A DNA stretch of 64,000 nt from an uncultured Gemmatimonadaceae bacterium (GCA_963829055.1 CAWHHI010000008.1:288001-352000); one strand, 5' to 3'. Counted from the first letter of the stretch, positions 829-20,141 are shown. The notes: generated by a model from the sequence alone, not told the origin. Numbers and translations are program-made.

Positions 829-849
829 CGCCATAGTAGTGCGCGCACG

Positions 850-1111: not shown

Positions 1112-1163
1112 TCTAGGAACCCAACGGTATTGCTGACGTGGCCTCTTCGGCCGCCATTCGCGA

Positions 1164-2324
1164 CTAGAAGCTCAGATGCGACGCCAACCGCTCCAGACTC
1201 GCGAGATCATGCGCCGGAGCGAAGACGTCCACGTGAGGCAGCGCCGCTTCCATGCCTCGGGTCAGCGGACGATACGTCGGGCTCCCGAGAAGCGGGTTGA
1301 GCCAGATCACGCGCCCCGCCTTCCTGCGGATCTCACGAAGCGCGGTGCTCAGGACCTCGGGATCGCCAGTATCCCAGCCATCGCTCAACACGATCACCGC
1401 CGTGCGTCGATCGAACAGCCGAGGCCAGCCGAGTCGCAGCGCCTCGAGGCTCTCGCCGATCTTCGTTCCGCCGGACCACCCACCATCGGGCACGGCGGCG
1501 AGCGCGTCGAGCGCCTCGCGATACGTGTCTCGCGACAACGACTCCGTGATGCGAACGAGTCGTGTGCTGAACGCGAACGTCTCGATACGCGCGAACGCGT
1601 GCTGTAACGCGTAGAGCACCTGCAGCAGGAACCGGCTGTAGAGGTCCATCGAGCCAGAGACGTCGCACGCAACGACCAGCTTCGTTCGCCGAACTTTGCG
1701 TTGCCGCCGGACGAGCCGGATGGGATCGCCGCCCGTCGCGAGTGCGAGACGGACAATGCGCCGCGGATCCAGGCGCCCGCGGTGACCCGCACTTCGCCAC
1801 CGCCGGCTGCGACGGGCACGGAGGCGCCTAACGATCCGGGCAATTGCGCCCGCCAGCGCATCGAGATCGTCACCGCCGTAGAGGCGAAAGTCCTTCGTCG
1901 CCGCGCCCTCCCGCACGCTCGGCGCCGCCAACGGAATCGTCTCCTCTCCTTCGGCGTCAGCCAGCGACGACGCCCAGCGGGTGAGCGCGGTACTTCCCGT
2001 CGCCGTCTTCGGCTCATCCGTCGGGGAGATGACGGGAGGGTTCGTCGCCGCGCCGCGCCTGCTTGGCACGGTCCCGTCGTGACTCGCGTCGCGTCGCCCC
2101 CACCAGGCCTCGAACAGCTCGTCGAACAAGTCGAGGTCCTGCCGGCGCGTCACGAAGAGCGTCCGGAGCGCCAGATACACGTCCATGCGATCCGTAGCGT
2201 CCACGGCAGCCAGGACGCGAACCGCCTCGATGGACGTCGCCGGCGTCGCGGCGATCCCACGTTCGCGCAGCAGCCGGCTGAACTGCGTGGCGAAGGTGAC
2301 GGGATCGACCGCCGCGGCCGTCAC
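1164..2324 (-). CDS. coxE: CoxE-like vWA-domain protein
   Basis: MIDAS motif DVSGSM, WSGGTKIG, LSDGWD, WLNPL; overlaps the MoxR ATPase gene. Confidence 0.88.
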   Translation of the reverse strand: MTAAAVDPVTFATQFSRLLRERGIAATPATSIEAVRVLAAVDATDRMDVYLALRTLFVTRRQDLDLFDELFEAWWGRRDASHDGTVPSRRGAATNPPVISPTDEPKTATGSTALTRWASSLADAEGEETIPLAAPSVREGAATKDFRLYGGDDLDALAGAIARIVRRLRARRSRRWRSAGHRGRLDPRRIVRLALATGGDPIRLVRRQRKVRRTKLVVACDVSGSMDLYSRFLLQVLYALQHAFARIETFAFSTRLVRITESLSRDTYREALDALAAVPDGGWSGGTKIGESLEALRLGWPRLFDRRTAVIVLSDGWDTGDPEVLSTALREIRRKAGRVIWLNPLLGSPTYRPLTRGMEAALPHVDVFAPAHDLASLERLASHLSF

Positions 2325-3217
2325 CCCGCGGTGCGCCCTGCCGCGACCATCGCGCTGGCGCCTCGGTCGCTGACCTCACGTCGAACCTGGCGGACGTCCG
2401 CTTCGTCCTTGAGCACGCAGCCTAACGTCTCGGACACGACGTCGTCATCCAGCGTGTTTGCCCCGATCACCACCAGCGCGCGCGCCCAATCGATCGTCTC
2501 GGCCACGCCTGGCGTCTTCACGAGACGCTGGCGTCGAACGGCCTGCACGAACGCCGCGACATCGGCGGCGAGCTGCTGGTCGATCACCGGAACCTTGGCG
2601 CGAACGATCTCGATCTCCTTCGACAGCGACGGATAGTCGATCCACAGGTAGAGACACCGGCGGCGCAGCGCCTCGGACAGCTCGCGCGTCCGGTTCGACG
2701 TCAGCACCGTACATGGCTCGTTCGTCGCGCGGATCGTCCCGATCTCGGGGATCGTCACCTGATGTTCCGACAGCACCTCCAGCAGGAACGCCTCGAACTC
2801 CTCGTCGCTGCGATCGACCTCGTCGATGAGCAGCACCGTCGTCTGCGTGGCGCGGATGGCGCGAAGCAACGGTCGCTCGAGCAGAAACGCCTCGCTGAAG
2901 ATCTGCGCCTCGCGCTCGCCGACCGATTGCCCGGAGCCTTCCCCCAGCTTGATGTGCAGGAGTTGCTTGGCGTAGTTCCACTCGTAGAGCGCCGTCGCGA
3001 CGTCGAGTCCCTCGTAGCACTGCAGCCGGATGAGGTCCGTTGCGAGCACGCGCGCGAGAACCTTCGCCACCTCGGTCTTGCCAACGCCCGGCGGACCTTC
3101 GATGAGCAGCGGCTTGTGGAGCGTCATGGCGAGGTACGCCGACGTCGCTGTCGCGCGATCGGTGACGTACCCCTGCTCTGCCATCGCTTGCTGAACGCGC
3201 GCGATCTCTTCCTTCAC
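2321..3217 (-). CDS. coxD: CoxD-like MoxR AAA+ ATPase
   Basis: EGPPGVGKT, RLQCYEGLD, LLIDEVDR, TSNRTRELSEALRRRC; GTG start overlaps the xdhC stop (GTGA). Confidence 0.9.
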   Translation of the reverse strand: MKEEIARVQQAMAEQGYVTDRATATSAYLAMTLHKPLLIEGPPGVGKTEVAKVLARVLATDLIRLQCYEGLDVATALYEWNYAKQLLHIKLGEGSGQSVGEREAQIFSEAFLLERPLLRAIRATQTTVLLIDEVDRSDEEFEAFLLEVLSEHQVTIPEIGTIRATNEPCTVLTSNRTRELSEALRRRCLYLWIDYPSLSKEIEIVRAKVPVIDQQLAADVAAFVQAVRRQRLVKTPGVAETIDWARALVVIGANTLDDDVVSETLGCVLKDEADVRQVRREVSDRGASAMVAAGRTAG

Positions 3218-4242
3218 GTCGCCTGTCCCGCCTGACGACGCAGGTAGGTCGCCTTGCATCCGGGGCAGCAGAAGTAGACGGTGCGCTCGCCTTCGACGAT
3301 CGTGTGGCGAGCGGTCGTCGTGTCCACTGGCATGCCACACACCGGGTCGACCGCCATTGCCGGTACAGCGGTGCGAGGACCGGTGCGCCTCGCGAGCGGC
3401 GTCGGCACGTCCACCGAGTGCGGAGCAGCAGTCACCGCCTGCGTGGCGTTAGGCTTCCGGTACCGCCGCTGCACGATCTCCGCCAGCACGCTGAGGGCTA
3501 TCTCCGAGGCGCTCATGCCGCCGAGGTCGAGTCCGGCCGGAAATTTCACGCGCGCGAGTCGATCGGCACCGATCCCCGTCGCCGCGACGTAGTCGATGAG
3601 GTAATGCGCCTTCTTGCGACTGGCGACCAGTCCTATGTACGCCGCGTCGCTCGCCGCCGCCGCCGCGAGCGCCTCTTCGTCGCCGGCACCCATCGTTCCC
3701 ACGACGACGAACGTGGAGTCATCGGCACGAGCAACGGCCGCGGTGATGTCAGACGTTAGGCGTATGCCCGGGGGAAACAGGTCCGCCGGCAGCGCAGCGG
3801 AACCGACGACGACCTCGAACCCGAGCTCGGCGCCTTGCCTCGCGAGGGACTGCACCACCGGTGTATGCCCGAGCAGCACGAGGCGCGGCGCCGCGAGCAC
3901 CGGCTCCAGGTAGATCTCGATGCCCCCTTCACCCTGGCAGGTCATGGGATACTCGCGCACGTCGCCATGGCGGGTCGGGTCGGTATTGGCGGGCCCCGCG
4001 CCGGCATTCATGCGAACGAGCCGAGGCCGTCCGTCGGCGAGCGCGTCGGCCGCTTCCTGCCTGACGACTGGCTGCACACACCCACCGCCAACCCACCCGT
4101 CGATGGCCCCGTCCGCCCGCACGATCGCCTTCGCACCCGGCCGCACACTCTGCGGTGGGTAGCTCGCGACGACGGTCGCCATGACGAATGGCGTCCGGTC
4201 GGCGCGAAGCTGAGCAGCGGTCGTGAAGATATCGTTGGTCAT
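3214..4242 (-). CDS. XdhC/CoxF-CoxI family molybdenum-cofactor chaperone with C-terminal YHS domain
   Basis: GWVGGGCVQ, YPMTCQGEG, YIGLVASRKK, PAGLDLG, EIALSVLAEI; C-terminal DPVCGM...YFCCPGC. Confidence 0.88.
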   Translation of the reverse strand: MTNDIFTTAAQLRADRTPFVMATVVASYPPQSVRPGAKAIVRADGAIDGWVGGGCVQPVVRQEAADALADGRPRLVRMNAGAGPANTDPTRHGDVREYPMTCQGEGGIEIYLEPVLAAPRLVLLGHTPVVQSLARQGAELGFEVVVGSAALPADLFPPGIRLTSDITAAVARADDSTFVVVGTMGAGDEEALAAAAASDAAYIGLVASRKKAHYLIDYVAATGIGADRLARVKFPAGLDLGGMSASEIALSVLAEIVQRRYRKPNATQAVTAAPHSVDVPTPLARRTGPRTAVPAMAVDPVCGMPVDTTTARHTIVEGERTVYFCCPGCKATYLRRQAGQAT

Positions 4243-4253
4243 CGGATGACAGC

Positions 4254-4415
4254 GGGGACTGGGGACTGGGGACTGGGGACTGGGTCGTTCAGGCGAGCAG
4301 CGAGCAGCGCGTGGTGTGCCGGGCGGTATTAGCAGCAGCGGGCAGCGTGCGGCCGCAGCATGCAGCCGTCGGCAGATGTGCCCAGCGTGCAGCTCAGTCC
4401 CCAGTCCCCAGTCCC
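4254..4415. repeat. Heptamer inverted-array element, copy 1: (GGGGACT)4 - core - (AGTCCCC)~3
   Basis: Read directly from the sequence. Confidence 0.9.
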
Positions 4416-4421
4416 GATGTC

Positions 4422-4548
4422 CTATCCTGTCCCTCTCTTCTCTCCAAGAATCTGCCACACCTCGAACGGCGTGATGGGAATGTAGATGCACCTGACCCCC
4501 GGATGCCACGGGGCGTCCACTACCGCGTCCGCGATCCCCGGCGGTGCG
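4422..4548 (-). pseudogene. Decayed duplicate of the coxL 3' end
   Basis: Aligns without gaps to 13451-13577 with 16 substitutions in 127 nt (manual count); translates APPGIADAVVDAPWHPGVRCIYIPITPFEVWQILGEKRGTG* versus intact [41 protein letters not shown]. Confidence 0.88.
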
Positions 4549-4571
4549 ATACGGTACGTGATGTCACCACG

Positions 4572-6098
4572 TCACCGGCCTTTCGGAATCGAATTGCCGT
4601 GACACGCGGTGCACAGCGATGGATTCTTCGCCCGCATCCGATCGGCGTTGAACCCCGGCCCGTGAGGGCTGAATCTGAACCCGCCGTTCACGGCCGAATG
4701 GCACGCCGTGCAGTCGCGCTCCGCATGGCAGGCCACGCACGACTCCAGACTCTGCCGCGCCGCCTGGCCGTGGCCGAGGCTGAAGTTGCGATAGGCGTCG
4801 TGATAGCCAGCCTGGCCGAGTCGCGAAGTAGCGACGAGACCTGACTTTTGGTGACAGGCCTGGCAGAACTGCGCCGCGTTGTGGCAGTCGCTGCAGTTCG
4901 CCTCGCGAGCGTACGCGGAGCTCGGGTGCCGCGTGAGAAACTGCGGAGGATGGTAGCCGACCTGTCGCGTGACGTCGGGGCGATGACAGTCGAGACATGT
5001 CGAGCGCACGTGGCAGGTCTCGCACGAGGACGGACGTGAATTTGCGGCTGACCCGTGCCGTTCCTTGAACTCGGGCGTGTGGTTCGCCGGCGGCACTCGC
5101 GCGAGCTGCACTCCTACCCCACGGCCCGGACCGGCGACTGGCATGGCATTCACAACGCGGGTCTGCACCCCGATGTGGCAGCTCACGCAGCTCTCACGGG
5201 CGTGGCACGTGACGCAGTTCGCACCGGTGCGCTGCGCGTCCTTCCCATGCGCGCGGATGAAGTTGGCGGATTCGTGACTTGGCGGCGCTGGCAGCGATGA
5301 CGTGTAGGCAGGCGACCGATCATCCATCGCGAGCGCGCGAATCACGGGCGATTCGGGCGCGTTGACGTGGCAGGTAATGCAGAAGTTCTGCGCGTGGCAG
5401 GTGGCGCAGCTGGCCGAGACCGCCATCGGTCCGGAGGTGGCTGATCCTTTCGCGGCTCTGCCGTGGCCTCCGGTCAGGAAGTCGGCCGCGTCGTGGGACC
5501 GTGGCTTCGGGAACAGCGCGATGTCCTCACGCGTTAGGCTCCGTGCAGCCGTAACGGGCACGTGACAGGTCGCGCACGCCTCGCTCGGGACGTCCACGTG
5601 AGGCCCCCTGAATCCGTGACAGCTCACGCATTGATTCACGACCGCGCGCGTGACCTCCATGCGCGGCGCGCCGCGCTCGTTATGACAGGCGGCGCAATTC
5701 CCGTTGAGCGTACTGTCGGCAGGATTCTTCGCCGTTGCGGCGCGGGCGTGCGCCTCGTGCGTGAACCGGAGGTTGCGCGTTGGCAGGCCGGCGGTGCGAG
5801 GCTGCCAGGTCACGCGCTGCTGGATGACACCATCGTGGCACGACGCGCACCCCGATGGATTCGGCAATATCGGCTGGCCCGCCTGCGTGACTCCCGCATG
5901 GCACGTTGCGCAGAGCGGAAAGAGCCGAGCGTGTCTCGAGTGCTGGAAGCGGTCCTCGCGTGCCGCGCTGGCACGAACCGCCGGCGGCAGGACACGTGCA
6001 GCGACCGCGTCCACACCCCACGTTGCCACCCCGAGCGCGACGGCGCCGAGCGCACCGACGGCGAGCAGCGTACCGACGACGTGGCGACGTGCGGTCAT
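4572..6098 (-). CDS. Exported 16-heme c-type cytochrome
   Basis: 16 CxxCH motifs counted, hydrophobic N-terminal signal/anchor, intact ORF, ATGA overlap with the porin gene. Confidence 0.92.
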   Translation of the reverse strand: MTARRHVVGTLLAVGALGAVALGVATWGVDAVAARVLPPAVRASAAREDRFQHSRHARLFPLCATCHAGVTQAGQPILPNPSGCASCHDGVIQQRVTWQPRTAGLPTRNLRFTHEAHARAATAKNPADSTLNGNCAACHNERGAPRMEVTRAVVNQCVSCHGFRGPHVDVPSEACATCHVPVTAARSLTREDIALFPKPRSHDAADFLTGGHGRAAKGSATSGPMAVSASCATCHAQNFCITCHVNAPESPVIRALAMDDRSPAYTSSLPAPPSHESANFIRAHGKDAQRTGANCVTCHARESCVSCHIGVQTRVVNAMPVAGPGRGVGVQLARVPPANHTPEFKERHGSAANSRPSSCETCHVRSTCLDCHRPDVTRQVGYHPPQFLTRHPSSAYAREANCSDCHNAAQFCQACHQKSGLVATSRLGQAGYHDAYRNFSLGHGQAARQSLESCVACHAERDCTACHSAVNGGFRFSPHGPGFNADRMRAKNPSLCTACHGNSIPKGR

Positions 6099-7576
6099 CG
6101 CCGCGTCGGTCGTGCGGGAGGCAACGCCAGCCGGTCCGCGCCGGAGCCGAACGACGCACTCACCCCGGTGCGGATGCGAAACTGCGACAACGATGACGCG
6201 CTGGCATCGGGTCGATCGCGCTCATCATTGACGAGTGTGACGTCAGCCCAGAGGCGGTACTCGGTACCGAACTGGCGCTCGCCGCGGGCGCCGATCCACA
6301 GACTGCTGGCGTCGTAGAAGCGCAGCTCGAGCGGCCGGTCCAGGGCCCCGCCGTGGACGTCGAACGAGTACGCGGCGTTAGGCGCCCAGCGCACGGCAGC
6401 GTCGGCGAACCGGGCGGAGGCGCCGGGCCCGTGCTCGAATCCGAGGTTGCCGTCGACGCTCCAGCGCGGATTCAGCGTGGCGGTCCCACCGCCGCTCGTC
6501 CGCCAGCCGCGATCCTCGAGGTCCGGGACGAGCGCCGTCGAGACGCCGGCGTCCTCGTACCGGTATGCTTCGCCGCGAGCATGCAGCGTCAGGCGGTCGG
6601 TCGCGCGAACGTCGGCCGACGCATTCACCGCGTTGTACGGCACCGGGCTGAACGCGCTCCACAGCGACCACAGACTGAAATAGGGCCGGTAGCGCCGCGC
6701 TCCACCGGTGACCGACAACCGCGGGCGCGTGTACGTGACTGTGACGTCCGCGCTCCCCACGGCGCCTTCGGCAATGTTGTAGTCGGCGCTGCCGGCGACA
6801 TGAAACGACGCGAGCTGTGCGCCGAGCGAGATGACCGTGCGCTCCGAGACGATGTTGTTGTCCCGCGGGTCGATTTCCCGGCGGTACTCCGCGCGGGTGT
6901 CGATGTCGCTGGAGTGCCACCCGGCTTCGACGCCCGCCACGATCTGCCGATCGGCAGGGCGCCACTCATCCAGCGGATTCAACGCGGGACTGTACACCGG
7001 AACGACGGCCGCCCGACCCAGGCCCCACCCGGCGTAGCCGCCAAACTCGATCGATGCATCGCGCCAGCGGCCCTCGACCGATGCACCGTCGAATCCGAGC
7101 GGCTCGAGACGCGACGCCAGAAGCAGACGCCCGCCTCGGGCGATGAGCGACGGACGCCGGTACTCGACGAAGCCCTCGATCAGCTGCCCGGTCGGTTCGG
7201 TCGCGGGCCATGCGTCGTCCGGGCCCAGATCCGCGACCAGTCGGCCAGTCGCATGGATCGTGAGACCGGGGACACGCAGTCCCCAGAGGATCACGCTGCC
7301 GCTGGTCGACACGGGCACGCCACGGAGCTCGTCACCCGGCCTCGTGTAATAGCAGTAGGCGCTGTCGCTGCAGCGCACCGCGTGACCATCGGGCGTCTGG
7401 AACCCGCCGCTCGGGGATGGCACTACGGCCGTGGCCAGAATGCTGTCGGCGATGAGGCCGCGGTACGACACGGCCTGCCCTCGCGCGTCGAGGCGCACGC
7501 GGTAGTTCTGCGCGCCTAACGAACCGGCCCACACCGCGAGGATGCTCGCGGCGATCCACGCGCGACGCCGCCTCAT
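6095..7576 (-). CDS. Putative outer-membrane beta-barrel (porin of a porin-cytochrome complex)
   Basis: Sec signal peptide, alternating aromatic/Gly beta-strand pattern, no CxxCH, translationally coupled between two multiheme cytochromes. Confidence 0.72.
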   Translation of the reverse strand: MRRRRAWIAASILAVWAGSLGAQNYRVRLDARGQAVSYRGLIADSILATAVVPSPSGGFQTPDGHAVRCSDSAYCYYTRPGDELRGVPVSTSGSVILWGLRVPGLTIHATGRLVADLGPDDAWPATEPTGQLIEGFVEYRRPSLIARGGRLLLASRLEPLGFDGASVEGRWRDASIEFGGYAGWGLGRAAVVPVYSPALNPLDEWRPADRQIVAGVEAGWHSSDIDTRAEYRREIDPRDNNIVSERTVISLGAQLASFHVAGSADYNIAEGAVGSADVTVTYTRPRLSVTGGARRYRPYFSLWSLWSAFSPVPYNAVNASADVRATDRLTLHARGEAYRYEDAGVSTALVPDLEDRGWRTSGGGTATLNPRWSVDGNLGFEHGPGASARFADAAVRWAPNAAYSFDVHGGALDRPLELRFYDASSLWIGARGERQFGTEYRLWADVTLVNDERDRPDASASSLSQFRIRTGVSASFGSGADRLALPPARPTRR

Positions 7577-9591
7577 CCTGAGGACTTGGTGAGCTTCGCC
7601 CGATACGCGCCTGGCTCAGTGAGAAAATGACAGGTGCTGCATTCCTGCTGCGGGTAGTGGTTCGCGGCCTTGGCCGAGTGGCACGTGCTGCAAAACGTTC
7701 TGGTGGGCGTGAGCTGCGCGACGGTTGCGGCCGCGTGGCAGGCGTCGCATCGCTGGTGCGCCACCTCGAGCGTCGCGTGGGCGGCTTTCGGGTCGGCGAG
7801 TGTATGGCATCCCGAACACGCGCGGCCGGCCGCGTGATGATCGCTGTGACAATCCTTGCACTGGGCAGTGGCCGGTGACGGCGCGAGCGTGACCGGCGTG
7901 GTGTGACACGCGGTGCACGTTCGCATGGAATGAGTGGCGTGCGAGAATTCCACAGGGCGCGGCGCGGCCTTGTGACCCGGGACGGTGACCGTCAGCGAGG
8001 CCGCGATGGGGGCGGCGAGCTCGTTAGGCTTGTGACACGAAGGGCACCGGGCCGCCGTGGGCTGCTGATGGTGGCAGATGGTGCACCCACGCGGCGGCTC
8101 GAACGTCAGGTGGCTCCGGGTCGACGTCGTCTGATGACAGACGAGGCACGCGATCTTTGCGTGCCTCGCGTGGGCAAACGTGTCGGCCTTGACGGGTGGT
8201 GGCCGTAACGGTGGAGCAATCCCTGGCGGGTCGTCGGCGATGCCTGGCGGGGGGCTCGTCGGCCGAGGGCCCGCTGGTCCGCGGCCGCGCGAGGAACGAC
8301 TCGATGGCCTGACGTACCACGGGCGGCGTCGGCGCGGCGCTCGTGCGGCGGAGTGCCCTGGTCGTATCGAAGGGCACCGGTGGCCGCACGTTCCCGCGAG
8401 ACCGGGCATTCGCGTGGCATCCCGTGCAGTCGCTCGCGTCGACCTTCGCCTGGTGCGGGGTGTGACACGTTAGGCATTGCGTCGGCTGCGAGGCGACCTT
8501 CTTGTGCGCGGCGCCGGCGTGGAACGGGTTGTCGCGCCAGCTGCCGTGACACGCGGCCGTCGTGCAGGTCTTGGCGGCCGCCGCTGTCGTCTCCTGCGTG
8601 TGCGGGTTGTGACACGTGCCGCACTTCCCACCGTGCGGGTCCTTGGCCGGGTCGAAATCCGGGAGCGCCTTCTTCATGTCGTGGCACCCGAAACACTGCG
8701 GCCCGCCCGGGACGAGCGTTCCGCGCGCCGAATCGCGCGTCGCGAGCGCGGGGACCTGAGCGGTGAAGTGCGTGACACACGGTGCAATGACGGATCGTCT
8801 GGTCGCGCATCTTGTCGAGCACGATCTTCGTGTCGTTCGCCTTGTGACACCCACTCTGGCCGCAGGTCGCGCGAGCGGGCTGGAAGCGGTGCACCTCCAC
8901 GCCGTGGCACGTCACGCATTTGACGTCCTTGAGCGCGCTCGAATCGGACTCGAGGTGGACGCGGTGCCCCGCCGTCGCCCGGATGCGCTGCCAGTTGGCG
9001 GTGTCCCCGGTGACGTGACACGTCTCGCAGACGCGATTCTCCACGGTCGCGTGCACGCCGATCTTGTCCGGCCGCTCCAGGAGCCAGAAGTAGAGCTGCC
9101 ACGCACTGGCGAACACCGACTGCGTGTGGCACGAGTGGCACGACAGCTCACCGTGCTTGTTCTCCGCGCTCGCGAACTTCGAGTACGCCGGGTGCATCAC
9201 GTGACACGACGTGCAGAAGTCGTTCGAGTGCTGCGTGTAGTTCCAGGTGGCGGTTCCCATGCCGACCGTCGCCACGAGCAGCACGGCCGCCCCGGCAACC
9301 AGCGCCACCGTCACGCCTCGGCTGCGTGACCTGAGCCAGGCGATGATGGCCGCGCGGTGCCTAACGAGGTACCAGACGACCACCACCGGCGACGATAGCC
9401 GCGACCACGAGCCCCGCCAGTTGCACCCACTGCGGAACCGTGGACAACAGGAACCGGGTGACCGCGGCAACGCCGCCGGGCAGCGGCGACTTGACGATGA
9501 CCGAATCCGGCGGTTGCACCGGCGTCGCTTGCTGCAACGCCGCCACCCAGAAGCGAATCGGGATGGCGGCGCTCGCGTGCAGTCCGGTCAC
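7573..9591 (-). CDS. Membrane-anchored ~20-heme cytochrome with an N-terminal NapC/NirT-like domain (frameshifted in this assembly)
   Basis: TM segments then WNYTQHSNDFCTSCHVM and ELSCHSCH (NapC/NirT-like); 18 CxxCH plus 2 CX4CH across joined frames; Pro-rich linker ~8190-8350; start approximate. Confidence 0.82.
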
Positions 9592-9610
9592 GAGGCGCGG
9601 CGTGAGTGGT

Positions 9611-11181
9611 TTACCGGGCCTGACGCGCGGCGCCGGTCCGCGCCGCGGTGCTCGGCAGTCTGGCAACCAACGTCCTCATGAAGGCCTGTTGGGAGGTCTG
9701 TCCACTCGTCGCAACGTCCGCCAACGCGTAGTAGGTCTTGATGTAGGCGGTCGTCGACGACAGCAGCGCGTCGCACAGGAAGGGATTGTGAACCCCTTTC
9801 GAGTTGTCACTGTTCGACGCGCCGTACTCGCCGCAGAGTCGAGCGTTGAACTCGGCGCCCTCAGCTGCCGTGATGTCCGCGTGGTCCATTCGGCAGGACG
9901 CTGCTGCTTCACGATGGCGAGCAATCCGCCATCGGTTGGCGCGGCCTGAAGCGTGTTGTCCTTATTCGTGTCCAGCCACAGCTGTTCCGTGGCCGTCTTC
10001 ATGCGAGTGCGAACGCTGTTGAACACCGAGACCGCCACAGCCGCGTCTGCGTGACACCCGGACTGCGTGCAGGACTGCCAGGTTCGCGCGGCCGTCGTGT
10101 ACGCGCACGTCTTGTCGGCTGTCGGCTTGCCCGTGCGCATCCAGGCACGGGATCGGGCGGAACAAGTGGCCGGTCGCCTTGAACACGAAGTTGCCCGACG
10201 TCGGGTCGTTTACCGTGAACTGGAGCACGTGACAGCCCGCGCAGAGCTTCGGGTTCTTGGTCGTGGCGTGCGACCCATAGATCCGTGCGGTGTCGTACAC
10301 GAATCCGGGCGGGCGCCAGCCGGCGTAGCCCAGCAGCACGGCTCCCTGTGGCGCGTGCGGTGTGACCGTCGACGGCGGCTCCGGCTCTGCGCGCCGATTG
10401 TGGCACTTCATGCACAGGTTCTGATCGGGATCCGCGGAGGTCACCGGATAGCGCAACTGATTCGGATTCGACGACCCATGTGGGTCGTGGCAGGTTGCGC
10501 AGGTGGCCGGCGGTTGATAGTCGGTCGGGTTCGCCTTCTCGACGTAAGTTGGCATCGATGCCCCAGCGCGCGAGCGCACCGCGAGCCTCGTGGCAGCCGA
10601 CGCACGACGGATTCGACGCCCGCGACGTGTTCAGGTTCGCGTGTCGTGACTGCTTCCACTCATCCGTGAATGGATGGTGAGCCCCGGAATGACAGTCGCT
10701 ACAGTTGCCGGTGCCGTTCACGCCCAGCTCTGCCAGCGGTCTCACCAGGTTGCCCTGGCCCACCCCTTCCACGTGCTCCAGGCCTGCCCCATGGCAGCTC
10801 TCGCACTGGACGTCGTGGTAGACCGGGTCCTTGACGCCGTCCCATCCGGCAGTCGTGCCAGCGGCCGCGTTGCCCCTGCCGTTCGTTGTATGGCACCCGA
10901 AGCACGAGTCCTTCTTGCCCGGATTCGAGTTCAGTGTGTTGTAGGCCTTGGCATGATTCGTCATGCCCCAGCTGCCCTGGAAGTCGGCGTGACAATTACC
11001 GCACGTCGTCTTTTGCGTTGGTCGCGTCGTAGTAGCCGAGGAAGCTCGCCGCAGCCGCCGCCGGCGGATTGAACGGCGGCCGATCCTGGTACACGACGTC
11101 ATCTTCGCACGCCGTGAGCACGGCAACGGCGATCAGCGTGGCCTTCGCGAGAGCGAGCGGACTGAACGACGTGATGCGCAT
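9611..11181 (-). CDS. Lipoprotein 9-heme c-type cytochrome (c554/c552-like; frameshifted)
   Basis: Lipobox VLTAC; 8 CxxCH plus CTQSGCH across joined frames; C-terminal DNSKGVHNP. Confidence 0.85.
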
Positions 11182-11472
11182 GGTGCGATGCAGGTTCGGG
11201 GCGAAGCCGTACCTACGAATGAGCGGAGTTCCGCCGAGAGATTGATGGCTCCATCCGGTCCGGAGCGATAGTCGGCGATTCCCCTAGAGCACCTCCTATA
11301 AAGGAAGAATCGGGCAATCTCCCGCCATTAGCCGTTCGTACCACTATCGGTAGTATTACGGACCGCCCATCGAGCCGCCTGGGCGGCGGAGACCTAACGC
11401 CGCCCGTTCAACGTAATTTGGGGTTCCGGGCACAGCCCAGCTCGGGTTGACTGCCGACCAGGAGGAGAGCTG

Positions 11473-13156
11473 ATGGCGGAGATCCGTCCCTGGCTTGCCC
11501 ATTACGACCCGGACGTGCCGGCCACGCTGGAGCCGTATCCGGAGCGGACGCTCCTCGACTACCTGTCCGAGAGCGCGCGCACGCATCCCGACAGCCCGGC
11601 CCTGCTCTTCAAGGGGCGTCGAGTGAGCTACGCGGAGCTCGAGCGCCAGAGCGACGCGTTCGCCGCCGCACTCGCAGCCAGTGGCGTCGTACCCGGAGAT
11701 CGGGTCGCGCTCTGCCTGCCTAACTGCCCACAGTTCCTCATCGGCGAGTTTGGTGCGTGGAAGGCCGGTGCCATCGCCTGCCCGCTGAATCCCACCTATA
11801 CCGAACGCGAGCTGCAGGAGGCGCTTTCCGCGAGCGGTGCGAAAACGGTCGTGGTGCTCAACCGCTACTACGACAAGCTGAAGGCCATCCAGTCTCAGAC
11901 GTCGCTGACGCGACTCATCGCCACGGGCATTAAGGAGTACCTGCCGCCTGAGCTCAGGATGGGTTACGAGCTGTTGAAGGAGCAGGAAGAGGGCGAGCAC
12001 ATCACGCTCCGTGACGACGACGAACGATTTGCCGAGGCTCTCGAGCGCCATCACACGGCGACGCGTCCTGCGCATCGTGTAGCCCCCAACGATCCCGCCG
12101 TGATTCTCATGAGTGGCGGGACGACGGGCACGCCGAAAGGCGTGCTCGGAACACATGGCGGCATGGTTGCAGCGGGCATGCAGCTCCGCGCGTGGCTTCG
12201 GCAGCGCGATGAACGAGTGGAGCGACACGATCATGCTCCCACTGCCGCTCTTTCATACGTACGCCAATAGCGGCGTGCAAAGCCTCGCGCTCGTCAACCA
12301 CAACCCGATCTCGCTCATCCCTAACGCGGGCGACTTCGGTGACATGCTGAAGGAGATCGCGACGGTGAAGCCGGCGTTCATCTGCGTCGTGCCAACGCTT
12401 CTCAGCGCAATCCTGAACCACAAGCTGGCCCGCGCCGGAAAGGTGGACTTTCGCTCGATCAAGCTCTGTTTCTGCGGCGCCGCCCCGCTCATGGCGGAAA
12501 CGCAGCGTCGCTTCGAGGAGCTGACTGGCGGCGTGATCGTGGAGGGCTACTCGCTGACCGAGGCGCAGATGGCGGTGCTCGCGAACCCCGTACGCGGCGA
12601 GAAGAAAATCGGATCGGTGGGCATGCCGCTGCCCGATGTCGATCTGCGCATCGTGGACAGCGACGACGGTACCACGCCCGTGCCGTTAGGCGACGTGGGC
12701 GAGATCGTGCTGTCCGCGCCGCAGCTCATGCTCGGGTACTGGCAGAGGCCGGAAGAAACCAGAGAGATGCTGCGCACGACCGACGACGGTCAGCGCTTGC
12801 TCTATACGGGCGACCTCGGGTACGTCGACCCGGACGGGTACGTCTTCATCGTCGACCGCAAGAAGGACCTCATCAAGACGAGCGGCTACCAGGTCTGGCC
12901 GCGCGAGATCGAAGAGGCGATCTCGACCCACTCGAGCGTCGCCGAAGTCGGGGTCGTGGGGCTGCCTGACAAGATGAGGGGTGAGTCGGTGAAAGCGTTC
13001 GTCGTGCTCCGGCCGGGAATGACCGCGACCGAGGCCGAGCTCAAGACGTTCTGCCGCGAGCGGCTCGCGCCGTACAAGGTGCCGTCGGACTTCGAGGTGG
13101 TGGCGGAGTTGCCGAAGTCACAGGTTGGCAAGGTGCTGCGCCGAGCGCTCAAATAG
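11473..13156 (+). CDS. Long-chain fatty-acid--CoA ligase (one frameshift near 12205)
   Basis: SGGTTGTPKG, EGYSLTE, YTGDLG, DRKKDLIK, LPKSQVGKVLRR. Confidence 0.9.
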
Positions 13157-13173
13157 CGGACCGGTGTTGGCGG

Positions 13174-13210
13174 GAAGCTGAGCAGCGGTCGTGAAGATAT
13201 CGTTGGTCAT
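13174..13210 (-). pseudogene. Duplicate of the xdhC 5' end (MTNDIFTTAAQL)
   Basis: Identical to 4206-4242, then diverges. Confidence 0.85.
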
Positions 13211-13221
13211 CGGATGACAGC

Positions 13222-13444
13222 GGGGACTGGGGACTGGGGACTGGGGACTGGGGACTGGGGCTGCACGCTGGGCACCTCAGCCGACGGCTGCATGCTGCGG
13301 CCGCACGCTGCCCGCTGCTGCTATTAGCGCCCGGTCACCCACGCGCTGCTCCGCGCAGCCGCACCCAGCGTCACCCAGCAACAAGCACGACCACCCAGCC
13401 ACCAGCTTGTAGTTGCCAGTCCCCAGTCCCCAGTCCCCAGTCCC
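13222..13444. repeat. Heptamer inverted-array element, copy 2; core inverted relative to copy 1 and carrying a solo four-helix-element end
   Basis: (GGGGACT)5 ... (AGTCCCC)~4; 13260-13350 is the reverse complement of ~4303-4393; 13358-13415 matches the reverse complement of 39598-39655. Confidence 0.88.
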
Positions 13445-13450
13445 GATGTC

Positions 13451-15820
13451 CTATCCTGTCACTCCCTTCTCTCGAAGAATCTGCCAGACCTTGAACGGCG
13501 TGATGGGAATGTCGATGTGCCTGACCCCCAGATGCCACAGCGCGTCCACGACTGCGTTCGCGATCGCCGGCGGCGCGCCGACCGTCGCGCTCTCACCCAC
13601 CCCCTTCGCGCCTAACGGGTGATGCGGGCTCGGCGTGATCGTCTTCGCCACCTCCCAGCTCGGCGTCTCCATGGCCGTCGGCACCAGATAGTCCATGAAG
13701 CTGCCGCCCTGAATGTTGCCGTTCTCGTCGTACTGGATCTCCTCGAACAGTGCCGGTGCGAGCCCCTGCGTCAGCCCGCCGTGGATCTGCCCGTCGACGA
13801 TCATCGGATTGATGATGTTCCCGCAGTCATCGACCGCCACGAAGCGACGCACCTTCACCTCGCCCGTGCCCTTGTCGATGTCCACGACGCAGATGTAGCT
13901 GCCGAACGGGAACGTGAGGTTCGGCGGATCGTAGTAGCTCACCGCCTCGAGGCCCGCCTCCATGCCCTGCGGGTGGTTCGTGTACGCGGCGAACGCGATC
14001 TCCTGAATCGTCTTCGAGCGCTCGGGCGAGCCGCGCACGGTGAATTTCCCGGGCGTCCACTCGAGGTCATCCTCGCTGGCTTCGAGCAGGTACGCCGCGA
14101 TCTTGCGAGCCTTGTCGCGAATCTTGCGCGCGGCCATCGCGCCGGCCGCGCCCGCCACCGGCGTCGAGCGACTGGCGTACGTCCCGAGTCCGTAGGGCGC
14201 CGTGTCCGTGTCACCCTCCTCGACCTGCACGTGCGCGGCGGGAATGCCCAGCTCTTCGGCGACGATCTGCGCGTAGGTCGTCTCGTGCCCCTGGCCCTGT
14301 GACTTCGTGCCGAAGCGCGCGATCGCCTTGCCCGTCGGATGAATCCGGATCTCGGCCGAATCGAACATCTTGAGACCCAGGATGTCGAACTGGTGCGACG
14401 GGCCCGCGCCGACGATCTCGGTGAAGCTCGAGATGCCGATGCCCATGAGCTCACCGCGCGCGCGTTTCTCGAGCTGTTCGCGGCGCAGGTCGGCATACCC
14501 GATGCTGCTCCATCGCGAGGTCGAGCGCGCCCTTGTAGTTGCCGCTGTCGTACGTCCACCCGGTGGCCGACTTGTACGGGAACTGCTCCGGCTTGATGAA
14601 GTTCTTCAGGCGGAACTCCGCCGGATCCATCTTCAGCTCGTGCGCCGCAATATCGGCGAGCCGTTCGATCGCGTGGACGGCTTCGGTCACGCGGAAGGAG
14701 CAGCGATACGCGACGCCGCCGGGCGGCTTCGTCGTGTACGCCGCATCCACCGCCACGTGCGCGGCCGGAATGTCGTACGACCCGGTGATCACACTGTAGA
14801 GTCCCGCGGGATACTTCGACGGGTTCGCGGCAGCATCCGCACATCCGTGATCCGCGAGCGTCTTCACACGCAGCCCCGTGATCGTCCCGTCCTTCTTGAG
14901 CGCGAGCTCGGCGTCGATGTGATAGTCGCGCGCGAACGAGTCGGCCTGGAGGTTCTCCATCCGATCCTCGATCCACTTGACCGGCTTGCCTAACAGGAAC
15001 GAGACGGCGATCGCGATCACGTAGCCCGGGTAGACCGGCACTTTGCCACCGAACCCGCCCCCAATGTCCGGAGAGATGATACGGATGCGCTCCTCGGAGA
15101 GACCGACGTGTCCCGCGACCAGCGCGACGCACCGTGCGCACCGCGTGCGGCGCCTGAGTGGTCATGTAGACCGTGAGCTGCTCGCGCGCCTTGTCGTAGC
15201 TCGCCACGCACCCGCACGTCTCGATCGACGCAACGTGAATGCGCGGGATGTACATGTGCTGCGACACCGTGAGGTCGGCGTCGGCGAACATCTGCTCGGT
15301 TGCGTCCTTGTTGCCCGCTTCCCAGTGCCAGATGTGGTTCGTGTCCTTCCGGTCCGGTCGCACGAGCGTGGCGCCCGGCTCCATCGCCTTGTACGGATCG
15401 ATCACCGGCGGCAGCGGATCGTACTCCACATCCACCACGGCGACGCCGTCCGCGGCCGCATAACGACTCGTGGCGATCACCGCCGCGACTTCCTGCGACT
15501 GATAGACGACGCGATCCGTCGGCAACACCATCTGGGTGTCGCTCATGAGCGTCGGCATCATGTGCAGGTTGTACTTCTCGAGGTCACGCCCCGTGATCAC
15601 CGCGAGCACGCCGGGTGTCGCGAGCGCGCGCGACGAGTCGATGCTCACGATCTTCGCGTGCGGGTACGGCGTGCGGACAATGTCCATGTAGAGCATGTCG
15701 GGGAGCACGACGTCGTCGACGTAGTTGCCCTTCCCGCGCAGGAAGCGGCCATCTTCCTTGCGCTTGATCGAATGCCCCATCCCACCGACTTCGGGAGCTG
15801 GTACGCGGCTGCGGTATCAT
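13451..15820 (-). CDS. coxL: Aerobic CO dehydrogenase large subunit, form I (frameshifted)
   Basis: Active-site loop VAYRCSFRVTEA; GHSIKRKEDGRFLRGKG; QGQGHETTYAQI; HHPLGAKGVGES. Confidence 0.93.
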
Positions 15821-15822
15821 GG

Positions 15823-16404
15823 TCAGTCGTCTTCCCGCGTGTCGAGGCGGCGAGTTAGGTCGGCTCTCGGCAGAGTCTCGGCGACGCAGCGCCTTCGCGT
15901 GGCGGGCAGTCGCGCGCGCTCGCGCGGCGCCGCATCCGCGCTCTCGGCGGCGTGCTGGATGGCCTTCACGATGTTCACGTAGCCCGTGCACCGGCACAGG
16001 TTGCCCGAGATCGCCTGCCGGATCTCTCCCTCGGTCGGGTTGTCGTTGTGCTCCAGCAAGCGCGGTCGCCGTCATCATCATGCCCGGCGTGCAGTAGCCA
16101 CACTGGAGACCGTGTTCTTCCTTGAACCCCGCCTGAACTGGGATGCAGGGCACCGCCCTGCTCGAGCCCTTCCACCGTGCGGATCGAATGCCCATCGGCC
16201 TGGACCGCGAACATGGTGCACGACTTCACCGGCGTGATCATCGACCAGCACGGTGCACGCACCGCAATGCGTCGTATCGCAGCCGATGTGCGTTCCCGTT
16301 AGGCGGAGGTTCTCCCGGATGAAGTGCACGAGCAGCAGCCGCGATTCGACGTCGGCCGAGTGCGCCTGGCCATTGACCGTGACGGTGATGTTGTGTGTGG
16401 ACAT
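15823..16404 (-). CDS. coxS: CO dehydrogenase small (2Fe-2S) subunit (frameshifted)
   Basis: [30 protein letters not shown]. Confidence 0.92.
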
Positions 16405-16406
16405 GG

Positions 16407-17304
16407 TCAGCTCTCTCGGTTGCCGATCTCGCCACGCGCGCGGCGCCCGGCGAGCGCCGAGCGCCCGCGTCGCGAGCACGCGAATGAGATCGCGTTTGTA
16501 CTCCTCGCTGCCACGTCGATCCGCGACAGGATCGGCGGCCGATGCGGCGAGCGTCGCCGCCTGCTCGATCGTACGCGGCGATCGAGCGGCTTGTTGAGCA
16601 GGAACGCCTCCGCCGCTCTCCGCGCGAATCGGCGTCGGTCCGACATTCGTTAGGGCGATGCCGGCCCGCTGGCACGGAACCGCTCGCGTCGACCGTCACC
16701 TGCGCGGCGACCGCCGCCGTCGCGAAGTCGCCGACCTTCCGCTCGAGCTTGAAGTACGCGCCACCGGACCGCGCCGGCGGCGACGGCATCGACGATCTCG
16801 GTCACGATCTCGTCCGGCTCGAGCACCGTCGTGAACAGTCCCACGAAAAAGTCGCGCGCAGCGACGGTGCGCGTTCCGGTCGCGCCGCGAATCACGAACG
16901 ACGCGTCGAGCGCGATCATCGTCGCCGGATGATCGTTGCCCGGATCTCCGTGCGCGACGTTGCCGCAGATCGTCGCCGAGTTGCGCACGATCGGGTCGGC
17001 GATCACGCGTGCCGTGTCGTAGCAGCAACGGATACCGATCGCGCACGACCGCAGAGCGCTCGAGCTCTGCCTCGCGCGCGAGCGCGCCAATGCGCAGCGC
17101 ACCATCGCGTTCCTCGACGTAATCGAGCCCGGGAATCCGGTTGATGTCCACGAGCACGGTGGGAGTGGCGAGGCGAAGCTTGAGCATCGGAATCAGACTC
17201 TGACCACCCGACAGCACCTTCGCTTCACCGCCGTGCTCGCGCAGCAGCGTCACGGCATCGTCCAGGGTGGAGGGCGCGACATAATCGAACCGCGACGGAA
17301 TCAT
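16407..17304 (-). CDS. coxM: CO dehydrogenase medium (FAD) subunit (frameshifted)
   Basis: [61 protein letters not shown]. Confidence 0.92.
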
Positions 17305-17349
17305 CGGCACCTCCTCGAGTTTTGTTGGTGCATAACAGACAACCACGAC

Positions 17350-17377
17350 TTGACCCGCGCGCTGCTCGCGCTAAAGT
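17350..17377 (+). promoter_or_regulatory. Candidate sigma70 promoter for coxG in the divergent coxM/coxG region
   Basis: TTGACC-N16-TAAAGT; a TTGACA lies on the opposite strand at 17395-17400. Confidence 0.35.
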
Positions 17378-17434
17378 GTCTCGCGGTTTCGCGGTGTCAA
17401 TGACCCGACGTGGTCGCACGACCAGAGGCTCGCC

Positions 17435-18170
17435 ATGTCGATCCGAATCGAAGAGGTCTTCGAGATTCAGGCGCATCCCGATCGTGTGTGGGCCTACCTC
17501 ACCGATCCGCGACAGGTCGTGAATTGTCTTCCCGGCGCCGAGCTCACGTCCGTGCAGGACGAGACGACGTTTCTCGGCCGAGTGAAGGTGAAGGTCGGAC
17601 CGATTTCGACCGCGTACGCCGGCAAGGTGATTCTCACCGGAGCGACGATGACGCCAATCGCGTCGTGCAGATGATCGGCGAAGGACGCGAGAGCGGCGGC
17701 ACCGGGTCAGCGAAGATGACGATGACGAGCATCGGTCGTTCGAGGCTCGCAAGCGGCAGCCACCGAGGTCCGCGTCGTCGCGGACATCGACATTGTCGGA
17801 CGCATCGCGCAGTTCGGGCGTGGGATGATCGAGAGCGTGAACAAGCAGATGTTCAAGCAGTTCACGGAGTGCGTCCGCGCGACGCTGGCGACGCCGATCG
17901 CGCCGACGCCCGCCGAGTCGGCGACCGACGCCATCAGCGCCATCTTCGATGATGCCGACCAGCCGCCCGCCGCAGCCGACCCGTCGGCGACGCCAGCCGC
18001 GCAATCGCAGTCATCCGTCGCTGGCGACACCCACGTCGGGCTCCATCGTACCTGGCGATCGCCACTGCCGAGCGCACCACCCGCCGCGCCCGCCCACGAT
18101 CGCGGGCAACCGGTGCGCTGATCCCGGTCTTGCTCCCGCGCTTCGTCGACTACCTCGGTCGGTCTCCTGA
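17435..18170 (+). CDS. coxG: CoxG (SRPBCC family) with Pro/Ala linker and C-terminal amphipathic segment (frameshifted)
   Basis: VWAYLTDPRQVVNCLPGA, VKVKVGPI, GRIAQFGRGMIESV. Confidence 0.85.
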
Positions 18171-18252
18171 GCAGACTGTTCCGTCGCTGAGGTCGCGCCC
18201 GGCAGGCCATTGGAAGCCGCCGATAGGCACAAGGGAACTGTTGCGATATGTG

Positions 18253-19208: not shown

Positions 19209-19219
19209 CCACGAGTACG

Positions 19220-19995: not shown

Positions 19996-19997
19996 AC

Positions 19998-20138: not shown

Positions 20139-20141
20139 GCG

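What the first reader, a model, noticed from the sequence alone, without database searches (positions are those of the whole stretch)
1164..18170. Candidate CO-to-extracellular electron transfer locus: form I CO dehydrogenase operon with a porin-multiheme conduit inside it
Seen: coxM-coxS-coxL(AYRCSFR), then four co-oriented genes (9-heme lipoprotein, ~20-heme NapC/NirT-like protein, beta-barrel, 16-heme cytochrome), then xdhC-coxD-coxE, with coxG divergent. Known: form I Mo-Cu CODH oxidises CO; CoxG has been described as a menaquinone shuttle for CODH in mycobacteria; NapC/NirT/CymA proteins oxidise quinol; porin-cytochrome complexes (MtrCAB, Geobacter Omc/Ext types) carry electrons across the outer membrane. 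Inference: this could form a chain CO -> CODH -> CoxG/quinone -> NapC-like multiheme -> porin conduit -> Fe/Mn oxides, humics or partner cells. The opposite-strand acyl-CoA ligase separates coxL from the maturation genes, so xdhC-coxD-coxE may now be transcribed with the cytochrome operon. I do not know of this linkage being described. Proximity may be incidental and the direction of electron flow is unknown.
Basis: partly seen in the sequence, partly recalled or inferred. Interest (0 to 1): 0.9.

Follow-up and report, generated by a model that had tools for sequence, protein, structure and literature searches.

The report
CO dehydrogenase operon split by cytochrome conduit
In one soil Gemmatimonadaceae species, a gene block for a presumed cell-surface electron conduit has landed in the middle of an ordinary carbon monoxide dehydrogenase operon; the arrangement is real but occurs in this species only, so it is more likely an accident of rearrangement than a dedicated CO-to-mineral pathway.

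Summary
These look like assembly indels.

The layout is a derived insertion. An 8.6-kb block (ligase plus the four conduit genes, window 4549-13165) sits in the coxL-xdhC spacer. It is flanked by a roughly 350-410-bp direct duplication: the coxL 3' end, a palindromic repeat, and the first 40-45 bases of xdhC. An independent metagenome contig (96.7% identical) confirms the hem16-xdhC-coxD-coxE side.

The cox operon is uninterrupted on three same-genus contigs, and coxL-xdhC-coxD-coxE is contiguous on a fourth. Of 41 conduit loci with at least 3 kb after hem16, only that same-species contig carries cox genes.

Best reading (0.6): two independent modules that share only the quinone pool. A side effect is that the CODH maturation genes now lie downstream of the conduit operon. 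A dedicated CO-to-extracellular-acceptor pathway is possible but unsupported (about 0.12). Read mapping could not be done.

The parts
17435..18170 (+). coxG, divergent from coxM; broken by an in-frame stop between 17674 and 17726 in this assembly
   Evidence: PF06240 COXG in two pieces, 41.9 and 17.2 bits. The G005 orthologue aligns to 17432-18007 in one frame at 63%.
16420..17307 (-). coxM (FAD subunit), with 3 frame changes
   Evidence: PF00941 in two pieces. Frame switches against the G005 orthologue.
15890..16400 (-). coxS (2Fe-2S subunit), garbled reading frame; ends approximate
   Evidence: PF01799 Fer2_2. The G005 CoxS aligns to 16452-15919 at only 54.5% in one frame.
13451..15780 (-). 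coxL, form I Mo-Cu CO dehydrogenase large subunit, with 2 frame changes
   Evidence: TIGR02416 on the three pieces: 270.7, 282.2 and 563.3 bits. VAYRCSFR is present in the piece 14451-15041. The G005 orthologue (88-96% identical to the pieces) scores 1212.6 bits against a cut-off of 991.
13166..13577 (-). Junction J2, left copy of the duplicated target: the intact coxL 3' end, a palindromic repeat element, and a relic of the first 40-45 bases of xdhC that abuts the ligase stop codon
   Evidence: blastn within C8; alignment with the relatives' coxL-xdhC spacers; hairpin of -164.7 kcal/mol, z -7.8.
11473..13156 (+). Acyl-CoA ligase (AMP-binding), 1 frame change near 12202; part of the inserted block
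   Evidence: PF00501 and PF13193. It is a single ORF in L043, L051 and L031, and stands beside hem9 in L031/L100 (one contig held twice), L043, L051 and L064.
9611..11181 (-). hem9: 9-heme lipoprotein, with 4 frame changes
   Evidence: The orthologues are single ORFs.
7573..9590 (-). hem20: 20-heme protein with two N-terminal membrane helices and an NrfH/NapC-like first module, a Pro/Ala-rich linker, then 9 more hemes; 3 frame changes; start approximate
   Evidence: PF03264 scores 21.9 bits here and 24.3 bits in the L043 orthologue (cut-off 24.1).
6095..7576 (-). Outer-membrane beta-barrel of an unnamed family, intact
   Evidence: No Pfam or NCBIfam family. AlphaFold model with pLDDT 78.5 and about 22-24 strands. 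Found in 24 of 41 genomes searched, G000 included.
4572..6098 (-). hem16: 16-heme cytochrome, intact
4198..4548 (-). Junction J1, right copy of the duplicated target: a decayed relic of the coxL 3' end (120 of 147 columns identical to the genome's own coxL), a palindromic repeat element, and the true xdhC start
   Evidence: Hairpin of -98.4 kcal/mol, z -5.9. Present in the independent contig L042, with a 35-base deletion in the relic.
3214..4242 (-). xdhC/coxF-like maturation gene with a C-terminal YHS-like tail
   Evidence: PF02625, PF13478 and a weak PF04945.
2321..3340 (-). coxD-like AAA ATPase
   Evidence: AAA families. NF047784 MadB-type ATPase at 285.5 bits, below its cut-off.
1164..2324 (-). 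coxE-like VWA protein
   Evidence: PF05762 VWA_CoxE at 205.2 bits.

Best explanation
This is an ordinary form I CO dehydrogenase operon (coxG / coxM-S-L-xdhC-coxD-coxE), at its ancestral place in a Gemmatimonadaceae genome, that has been split by an insertion. The insert is an 8.6-kb block, window 4549-13165. It holds an acyl-CoA ligase gene and the four-gene porin-multiheme cytochrome operon that is conserved across Gemmatimonadales. It entered the short coxL-xdhC spacer and left a direct duplication of roughly 350-410 bp. The duplicated unit is the coxL 3' end, a palindromic repeat element, and the first 40-45 bases of xdhC. The event happened within this lineage and predates the split of the two sampled strains. 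It is absent from every other relative examined. Inferred, not shown: the two systems work as separate modules that meet only in the quinone pool. CODH with CoxG reduces menaquinone. The NrfH/NapC-like start of hem20 oxidises quinol and passes electrons along 45 heme sites, through the barrel, to the cell surface, or the reverse. One consequence of the insertion is that xdhC-coxD-coxE have lost their direct link to coxMSL. They now lie behind the conduit operon and a strong hairpin, so they are probably expressed by read-through from the conduit promoter. The many frame breaks are most likely errors of a patchily polished long-read assembly, not gene decay.
For: Block limits: homology to the relatives' ligase-plus-conduit block runs from 4572 to 13152, from stop codon to stop codon. 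Five related contigs (L043, L060, L076, L079, L082) lose homology to the window exactly at the hem16 stop. They share a different 1.1-kb downstream region that has no match in G000.

Duplication: window 4395-4548 matches 13424-13577 at 89.6%, and 4198-4284 matches 13166-13252 at 97.7%, both in the same orientation. The alignment shows these are the coxL 3' end and the xdhC 5' end. The relic is closest to this genome's own coxL: 120 of 147 columns, against 98-104 of 147 for four other species.

Ancestral state: coxMSL-xdhC-coxD-coxE is contiguous in G002 and G005. G001 and G003 each carry coxL-xdhC-coxD-coxE, on contigs that begin inside coxL. Both outer flanks of the split operon are syntenic with those loci.

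Independent assembly: L042 aligns to window 8352-1164 at 96.7%, and on to 829-1 at 98.7%, with the same gene order.

No recurrence: cox genes occur in 1 of 41 loci with at least 3 kb after hem16, and that one is L042. They occur in 0 of 22 loci with at least 3.5 kb before hem9. The set is 73 loci and includes 5 duplicate pairs.

Assembly errors: relatives have single intact ORFs for hem9, hem20, the ligase and coxL. The breaks are mostly single extra bases in the window, outside homopolymers. Orthologues elsewhere in G000 are also broken, at C6:329980, C6:265699 and C20:770499-774864. Of 771 10-kb bins, 22% have under 0.15 cover by long ORFs. Completeness is 85.9% in only 20 contigs.

Quinone link: CoxG as a menaquinone carrier (PMC12202499, passages read).
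Against: No expression data were obtained, so read-through into xdhC-coxD-coxE is inference. In relatives the conduit often stands beside quinone-linked respiratory enzymes. Of 36 distinct loci of at least 12 kb, 5 carry a NiFe hydrogenase, 7 a molybdopterin oxidoreductase and 6 a cytochrome b. Adjacency to a dehydrogenase may therefore not be pure chance. The arrangement has persisted: the relic differs at 27 of 147 columns from its source and at 10 of 112 between the two strains, so it is at least tolerated. No clean empty site for the block was found in G000. If the frame breaks are real, the locus is decaying instead.
Confidence: 0.6

Rival explanations
1. Adaptive respiratory island. The insertion was kept because it ties CO oxidation to the conduit. 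CODH maturation genes are co-transcribed with the conduit, so CO-derived electrons (CODH, CoxG/menaquinol, hem20, barrel complex) are disposed of on extracellular acceptors when oxygen is scarce.
For: Every step is plausible. xdhC-coxD-coxE now lie directly behind hem16. The arrangement is older than the split of the two sampled strains. Conduit loci in relatives often carry other quinone-reducing enzymes, including a NiFe hydrogenase in 5 of 36.
Against: It occurs in one species only. The ligase came along with the conduit, which points to a passive block move. A strong hairpin lies between hem16 and xdhC. There are no expression or activity data. Coupling through the quinone pool needs no linkage.
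Confidence: 0.12
2. Assembly artefact. The contig is mis-joined at the repeated junction sequence, and coxMSL is not really next to the ligase and conduit.
For: Both junctions carry a dispersed repeat with many copies in the genome. J2 lies in a low-quality patch.
Against: J1 is reproduced in an independent contig that has its own private differences. J1 holds a coxL relic and J2 holds the reciprocal xdhC relic, which a mis-join would not create. A genome of 7.8 Mb in 20 contigs suggests long reads, which would span 400 bases; this last point is an inference.
Confidence: 0.07
3. Decaying locus. The frame breaks are real, and coxMSL, hem9, hem20 and the ligase are pseudogenes in this strain.
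For: There are at least 13 frame changes between 8247 and 17346. The 17-base difference from L042 in hem20 is not a typical read error.
Against: The pieces stay 88-96% identical in protein to intact orthologues. The same kind of breaks occurs across the genome in patches. The flanking housekeeping-type genes up to 22377 are equally affected. L042 is open in hem20 where the two overlap.
Confidence: 0.08
4. The conduit runs inward, taking electrons from Fe(II), Mn(II) or a partner cell, and has nothing to do with disposing of CO electrons.
For: Direction cannot be read from sequence. A multicopper oxidase follows the conduit in the same-genus contig L031.
Against: An NrfH/NapC-like quinol module suits either direction. 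No Cyc2-type or MtoA-type family match was obtained.
Confidence: 0.1

Closest known systems
Form I cox clusters of Afipia (Oligotropha) carboxidovorans and Mycobacterium smegmatis (CoxMSL with CoxD, CoxE, CoxF and CoxG). Cluster names are recalled; the role of CoxG is from PMC12202499.
   Same: M-S-L gene order, the AYRCSFR active-site loop, the TIGR02416 large subunit, XdhC/CoxF-like, CoxD-like and CoxE-like maturation genes, and CoxG.
   Different: The structural and maturation genes are separated by an 8.6-kb unrelated block. coxG is divergent. The xdhC-like gene has a YHS-like tail.
MtrCAB with CymA of Shewanella, and the Pcc porin-cytochrome clusters of Geobacter (PMC4245776 and PMC6295460, passages read).
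   Same: A barrel gene sits among multiheme cytochrome genes, with a lipoprotein cytochrome and an inner-membrane quinol-dehydrogenase-like module. The general logic is a trans-envelope heme wire.
   Different: There is no family-level sequence match: the barrel matches no family, and DmsE/MtrA TIGR03508 scores 36.9 and 22.4 bits against a cut-off of 192. The heme counts are 9, 20 and 16. The quinol module is fused to a 20-heme protein. The barrel fold matches ushers and porins as well as it matches MtrB.
The same four-gene conduit elsewhere in Gemmatimonadota, beside hydrogenase, molybdopterin oxidoreductase or bc-type genes
   Same: Orthologous hem9-hem20-barrel-hem16 genes in the same order.
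   Different: Here the neighbour is a Mo-Cu CODH, and the conduit lies inside its operon rather than beside it.
CO oxidation with Fe(III) reduction in Carboxydocella thermautotrophica (PMC6085454; search listing and abstract only).
   Same: One organism holds both CO oxidation and multiheme extracellular electron transfer genes.
   Different: That organism is an anaerobic Gram-positive thermophile with a Ni-CODH, not a Mo-Cu CODH with a porin conduit.

Membership tests
Form I Mo-Cu CO dehydrogenase (CoxMSL) | Large subunit matches the aerobic CODH equivalog model TIGR02416 above its cut-off | tested here: met
   The three G000 pieces score 270.7, 282.2 and 563.3 bits over model positions 1-221, 248-425 and 448-769. 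The intact G005 orthologue (88-96% identical to the pieces) scores 1212.6 bits against 991.
Form I Mo-Cu CO dehydrogenase (CoxMSL) | Active-site loop AYXCSFR (motif definition recalled) | tested here: met
   VAYRCSFR is present in the translation of 14451-15041.
Form I Mo-Cu CO dehydrogenase (CoxMSL) | coxM-coxS-coxL order with coxD/E/F-type maturation genes and coxG | tested here: met
   Pfam. The order is interrupted by the insert. Relatives are contiguous.
Form I Mo-Cu CO dehydrogenase (CoxMSL) | Open reading frames for all three subunits | tested here: inconclusive
   There are 2 frame changes in coxL and 3 in coxM, and coxS is garbled. These are probably assembly errors.
Form I Mo-Cu CO dehydrogenase (CoxMSL) | CO oxidation activity | not testable with these tools
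   No culture or assay was available.
Porin-cytochrome conduits (MtrCAB, Pcc) | Outer-membrane barrel encoded among multiheme cytochrome genes | tested here: met
   Signal peptide and a model of about 22-24 strands, pLDDT 78.5. The genes overlap by 4 bases at 7573-7576 and 6095-6098.
Porin-cytochrome conduits (MtrCAB, Pcc) | Sequence-family membership (MtrB, or the MtrA/DmsE decaheme family) | tested here: not met
   The barrel matches 0 families in Pfam and NCBIfam. TIGR03508 scores 36.9 bits (hem9 orthologue) and 22.4 bits (hem16) against a cut-off of 192. Foldseek puts MtrB 6r2q_B at rank 16 (E 3.7e-9, TMq 0.42), behind ushers and porins.
Porin-cytochrome conduits (MtrCAB, Pcc) | A cytochrome threaded through the barrel, and electron transfer to external acceptors | not tested
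   No complex prediction or experiment was done.
NapC/NirT/NrfH/CymA quinol dehydrogenases | N-terminal membrane helix followed at once by a tetraheme module, with PF03264 above its cut-off | tested here: inconclusive
   The helices and the first CxxCH directly after them are readable. PF03264 scores 21.9 bits in G000 and 24.3 bits in the L043 orthologue, against a cut-off of 24.1. NrfH TIGR03153 scores 32.3 bits against 134.2.

The most novel reading that the evidence does not exclude
In this species the insertion has rewired regulation so that the factors that build the Mo-Cu active site are made only together with the conduit. That would tie atmospheric or soil CO oxidation by an 'aerobic' Mo-CODH to respiration of extracellular acceptors such as Fe/Mn oxides or humics. 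With the hydrogenase-linked conduits of other Gemmatimonadota, it would point to trace-gas-driven extracellular respiration in a major soil phylum.
Probability: 0.1. Interest if true: 0.8.

Novelty: new variant of a known kind. Interest (0 to 1): 0.4.

Why it matters
Mo-Cu CO dehydrogenases are regarded as feeding the aerobic respiratory chain. A natural strain in which the enzyme's maturation genes sit behind an extracellular-electron-transfer-type operon would be a ready-made test of whether CO electrons can leave the cell under hypoxia. The evidence here says the linkage is a one-species rearrangement. Its main value is therefore threefold. It is a well-documented case of an operon split by a block insertion with target duplication. 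It offers a natural comparison, since closely related lineages lack the insertion. It also warns that gene neighbourhood alone does not show a pathway. The conduit itself is conserved across Gemmatimonadales, and I found no description of it in the papers I searched. It remains the more important object.

Tried and rejected
There is therefore no read support for either junction, no check of the frame breaks and no RNA evidence.

Empty site: I looked in G000 for the place the block left. One gene that follows the conduit in L031, L043, L044 and L079 has an 86% orthologue at C6:329980-332639. One gene that precedes the ligase in the distant L064 matches C6:328157-329134. Their order and orientation do not give a simple empty site, and the upstream flanks of L043 and L051 have no clear counterpart.

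Promoter and terminator scan of 1000-18600: 2 promoter-like sites against 1.7 expected, and 7 terminator-like sites against 7.1 expected. This is uninformative.

Foldseek of the barrel gives generic large barrels only.

Earlier notes of this scan: nothing by place or by sequence.

G001's conduit contig ends 180 bases after hem16 without any coxL relic.

Alternative origin: I considered two cox copies that flanked the conduit and each lost half. G001 does have two coxL copies. I rate this model lower because both outer flanks match a single ancestral cox locus.

Literature: two searches (20 of 237 and 20 of 37 papers listed) showed no title or abstract describing cox genes linked to a porin-cytochrome cluster. 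The Gemmatimonadota ecogenomics paper PMC10581226 has 0 occurrences of 'multiheme' or 'extracellular electron'. No complex prediction was attempted.

Full report
WHAT IS THERE

The window is G000:C8:288001-352000, from a 7.78-Mb genome in 20 contigs with 85.9% completeness. Titles of related records place it in Gemmatimonadaceae.

Reading the minus strand from 17346 down to 1164, the gene order is:
- coxM, coxS and coxL;
- an acyl-CoA ligase on the opposite strand (11473-13156);
- a 9-heme lipoprotein (hem9, from 11181);
- a 20-heme protein (hem20);
- a beta-barrel (7576-6095);
- a 16-heme cytochrome (hem16, 6098-4572);
- an xdhC-like gene (4242-3214), a coxD-like gene and a coxE-like gene (to 1164).

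coxG is divergent from coxM, at 17435 to about 18170. Pfam and NCBIfam support each name. CoxL carries VAYRCSFR. The heme-site counts are 9, 20 and 16.

FRAME BREAKS

Intact orthologues from related contigs were used as the reference. Against them:
- hem9 has 4 shifts, hem20 has 3 and the ligase has 1;
- coxL has 2 and coxM has 3;
- coxS aligns only as a garbled frame at 54.5%;
- coxG has an in-frame stop;
- the barrel, hem16, xdhC, coxD and coxE are open.

The breaks are mostly single extra bases, not in homopolymers. They continue at similar density through the neighbouring genes up to at least 22377. Window 1164-8352 differs from an independent contig by only six gaps, and only one of them, a 17-base gap, shifts a coding frame.

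Orthologues elsewhere in the genome are broken in the same way. Of 771 10-kb bins, 22% have almost no long open frames. I read this as a patchily polished long-read assembly, not gene decay. Without reads this remains an inference.

THE LAYOUT IS AN INSERTION

Homology to the relatives' ligase-plus-conduit block runs from 4572 to 13152, which is from the hem16 stop codon to the ligase stop codon.

Immediately outside both ends lie two copies of the same roughly 350-410-bp unit in the same orientation. Aligned with the coxL-xdhC spacers of four same-genus genomes, the unit has three parts:
- the last ~130 bases of coxL;
- a palindromic element whose arms are tandem heptamers;
- the first 40-45 bases of xdhC.

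At 13166-13577 the coxL end is the working one and the xdhC start is a relic. At 4198-4548 the coxL end is a relic and the xdhC start is the working one.

The relic coxL end is closest to this genome's own coxL: 120 of 147 columns, against 98-104 of 147 for four other species. It differs at 10 of 112 columns between the two strains. It is therefore a decaying copy made within this lineage, before the two strains split.

The palindromic element belongs to a dispersed family with dozens of copies in the genome. It folds into very stable hairpins: -98.4 kcal/mol (z -5.9) and -164.7 kcal/mol (z -7.8).

THE INSERTION IS DERIVED AND CONFINED TO ONE SPECIES

In same-genus genomes the cox operon is uninterrupted:
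- G002 and G005 carry contiguous coxM-S-L-xdhC-coxD-coxE;
- a second G001 contig and a G003 contig carry coxL-xdhC-coxD-coxE, each beginning inside coxL.

Both outer flanks of the split operon in G000 are syntenic with those loci. Window 15947-22377 matches G005. The gene that follows coxE in G001, G002 and G005 lies about 7 kb beyond coxE in G000. So the cox operon is at its old place and the block came to it.

The four-gene conduit is widespread. The barrel is found in 24 of 41 genomes of the order that were searched, G000 included. Conduit loci came from three sources. In 73 such loci, of which 5 pairs are duplicates:
- cox genes occur in 1 of 41 loci with at least 3 kb after hem16;
- cox genes occur in 0 of 22 loci with at least 3.5 kb before hem9.

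The single positive is L042. It is a metagenome contig 96.7% identical to the window over 8352-1164, continuing into the ABC transporter gene at 829-1.

Contigs from slightly more distant lineages (hem16 DNA 84-91% identical, 83-97% in protein) lose homology exactly at the hem16 stop and carry a different downstream region.

L042 has its own private differences, including a 35-base deletion in the coxL relic. It is therefore independent confirmation of the hem16-xdhC junction. The coxL-ligase junction has no such confirmation. Its reciprocal relic argues against a mis-join.

HOW IT MOST LIKELY WORKS

Shown:
- the gene content, the insertion and its limits;
- conservation of the conduit;
- the membrane-anchored NrfH/NapC-like start of hem20 (two helices, then the first heme site; PF03264 borderline);
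- the lipobox of hem9;
- the signal peptide and large-barrel model of the barrel protein.

From the literature: CoxG extracts menaquinone and delivers it to Mo-CODH (PMC12202499, passages read).

Inferred: CODH reduces quinone. The conduit is a quinol:extracellular-acceptor wire, direction unknown. The two meet only in the quinone pool, which needs no genetic linkage.

The insertion does have one concrete consequence. xdhC-coxD-coxE used to follow coxL directly; in G003 there is no spacer at all. They now follow hem16 across a hairpin, so their expression probably depends on the conduit promoter in the ligase-hem9 divergent region. A consensus promoter scan was uninformative.

CONTEXT THAT KEEPS THE BOLDER READING ALIVE

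In relatives the conduit often stands beside respiratory enzymes. Pfam on 86 flanking ORFs from 11 loci, and a tblastn tally over 36 distinct loci of at least 12 kb, give:
- NiFe hydrogenase large subunit in 5 loci;
- molybdopterin oxidoreductase in 7;
- cytochrome b in 6;
- CcmF in 5.

These relatives are not independent of one another, so the tally is descriptive only. A CODH neighbour is seen only here.

COMPARISON WITH KNOWN SYSTEMS

The cox part is a member of form I Mo-Cu CODH by model score, motif and accessory genes.

The conduit works like MtrCAB/CymA or the Geobacter Pcc clusters, but it fails their sequence-family tests.

I found no paper describing cox genes linked to a porin-cytochrome cluster (searches, listings only). 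The Gemmatimonadota ecogenomics paper mentions neither multihemes nor extracellular electron transfer.

VERDICT

The finding is real as anatomy and is a well-resolved rearrangement. As a pathway it is unsupported. Interest is moderate.

Noticed in passing
window 4236-4430 and 13200-13460; many sites in G000: A dispersed palindromic element whose arms are tandem heptamers and their reverse complements. It has dozens of copies across the contigs (458 blastn lines for the two junction queries). It also sits in the coxL-xdhC spacer of G001, G002 and G005, but not G003. It looks like a REP- or MITE-like element.
   Followed up: partly
G000, all contigs; window 8200-22400: The assembly is a mosaic of clean stretches and stretches with dense single-base insertions. 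Of 771 10-kb bins, 22% have under 0.15 cover by long high-GC3 ORFs. Any pseudogene call in this genome needs reads.
   Followed up: partly
window 3214-3350 (C-terminus of the xdhC-like protein): The XdhC/CoxF-like maturation protein ends in a Cys-rich YHS-like metal-binding tail (PF04945, 21.8 bits, below the cut-off). This could bear on copper delivery to the Mo-Cu site.
   Followed up: no
G000 C6:358721-362064: A second cox-like cluster in S-L-M order. Its large subunit is about 50% identical to CoxL over the C-terminal half. This is the form II-like arrangement (recalled), of unknown substrate.
   Followed up: no
G001 contigs C315 and C100 (L106, L109): The same-genus genome G001 holds two form I coxL copies, 97% and 95% identical to the window's C-terminal piece. 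Duplication of cox genes therefore occurs in this genus.
   Followed up: partly
L046 (metagenome contig, 8981 bases): Two conduits in tandem: a barrel-hem16 pair (64-68% identity) directly upstream of a full hem9-hem20-barrel-hem16 set (about 74-84%).
   Followed up: no
window 8247 versus L042 position 106: A 17-base difference inside a tandemly repeated Pro/Ala-rich linker of hem20. L042 is in frame there and G000 is not.
   Followed up: partly
G000 C8:282062-289163 (includes window 1-1163): About 7 kb, including an ABC transporter gene, lies between coxE and the gene that follows coxE directly in G001, G002 and G005. This is a second difference at the same locus, and L042 shares it at least as far as it reaches.
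   Followed up: partly
L031 9909-11870: In the same-genus genome G005, a two-domain multicopper oxidase lies about 1.4 kb beyond the end of the conduit, on the opposite strand. This is a possible hint at metal oxidation.
   Followed up: no
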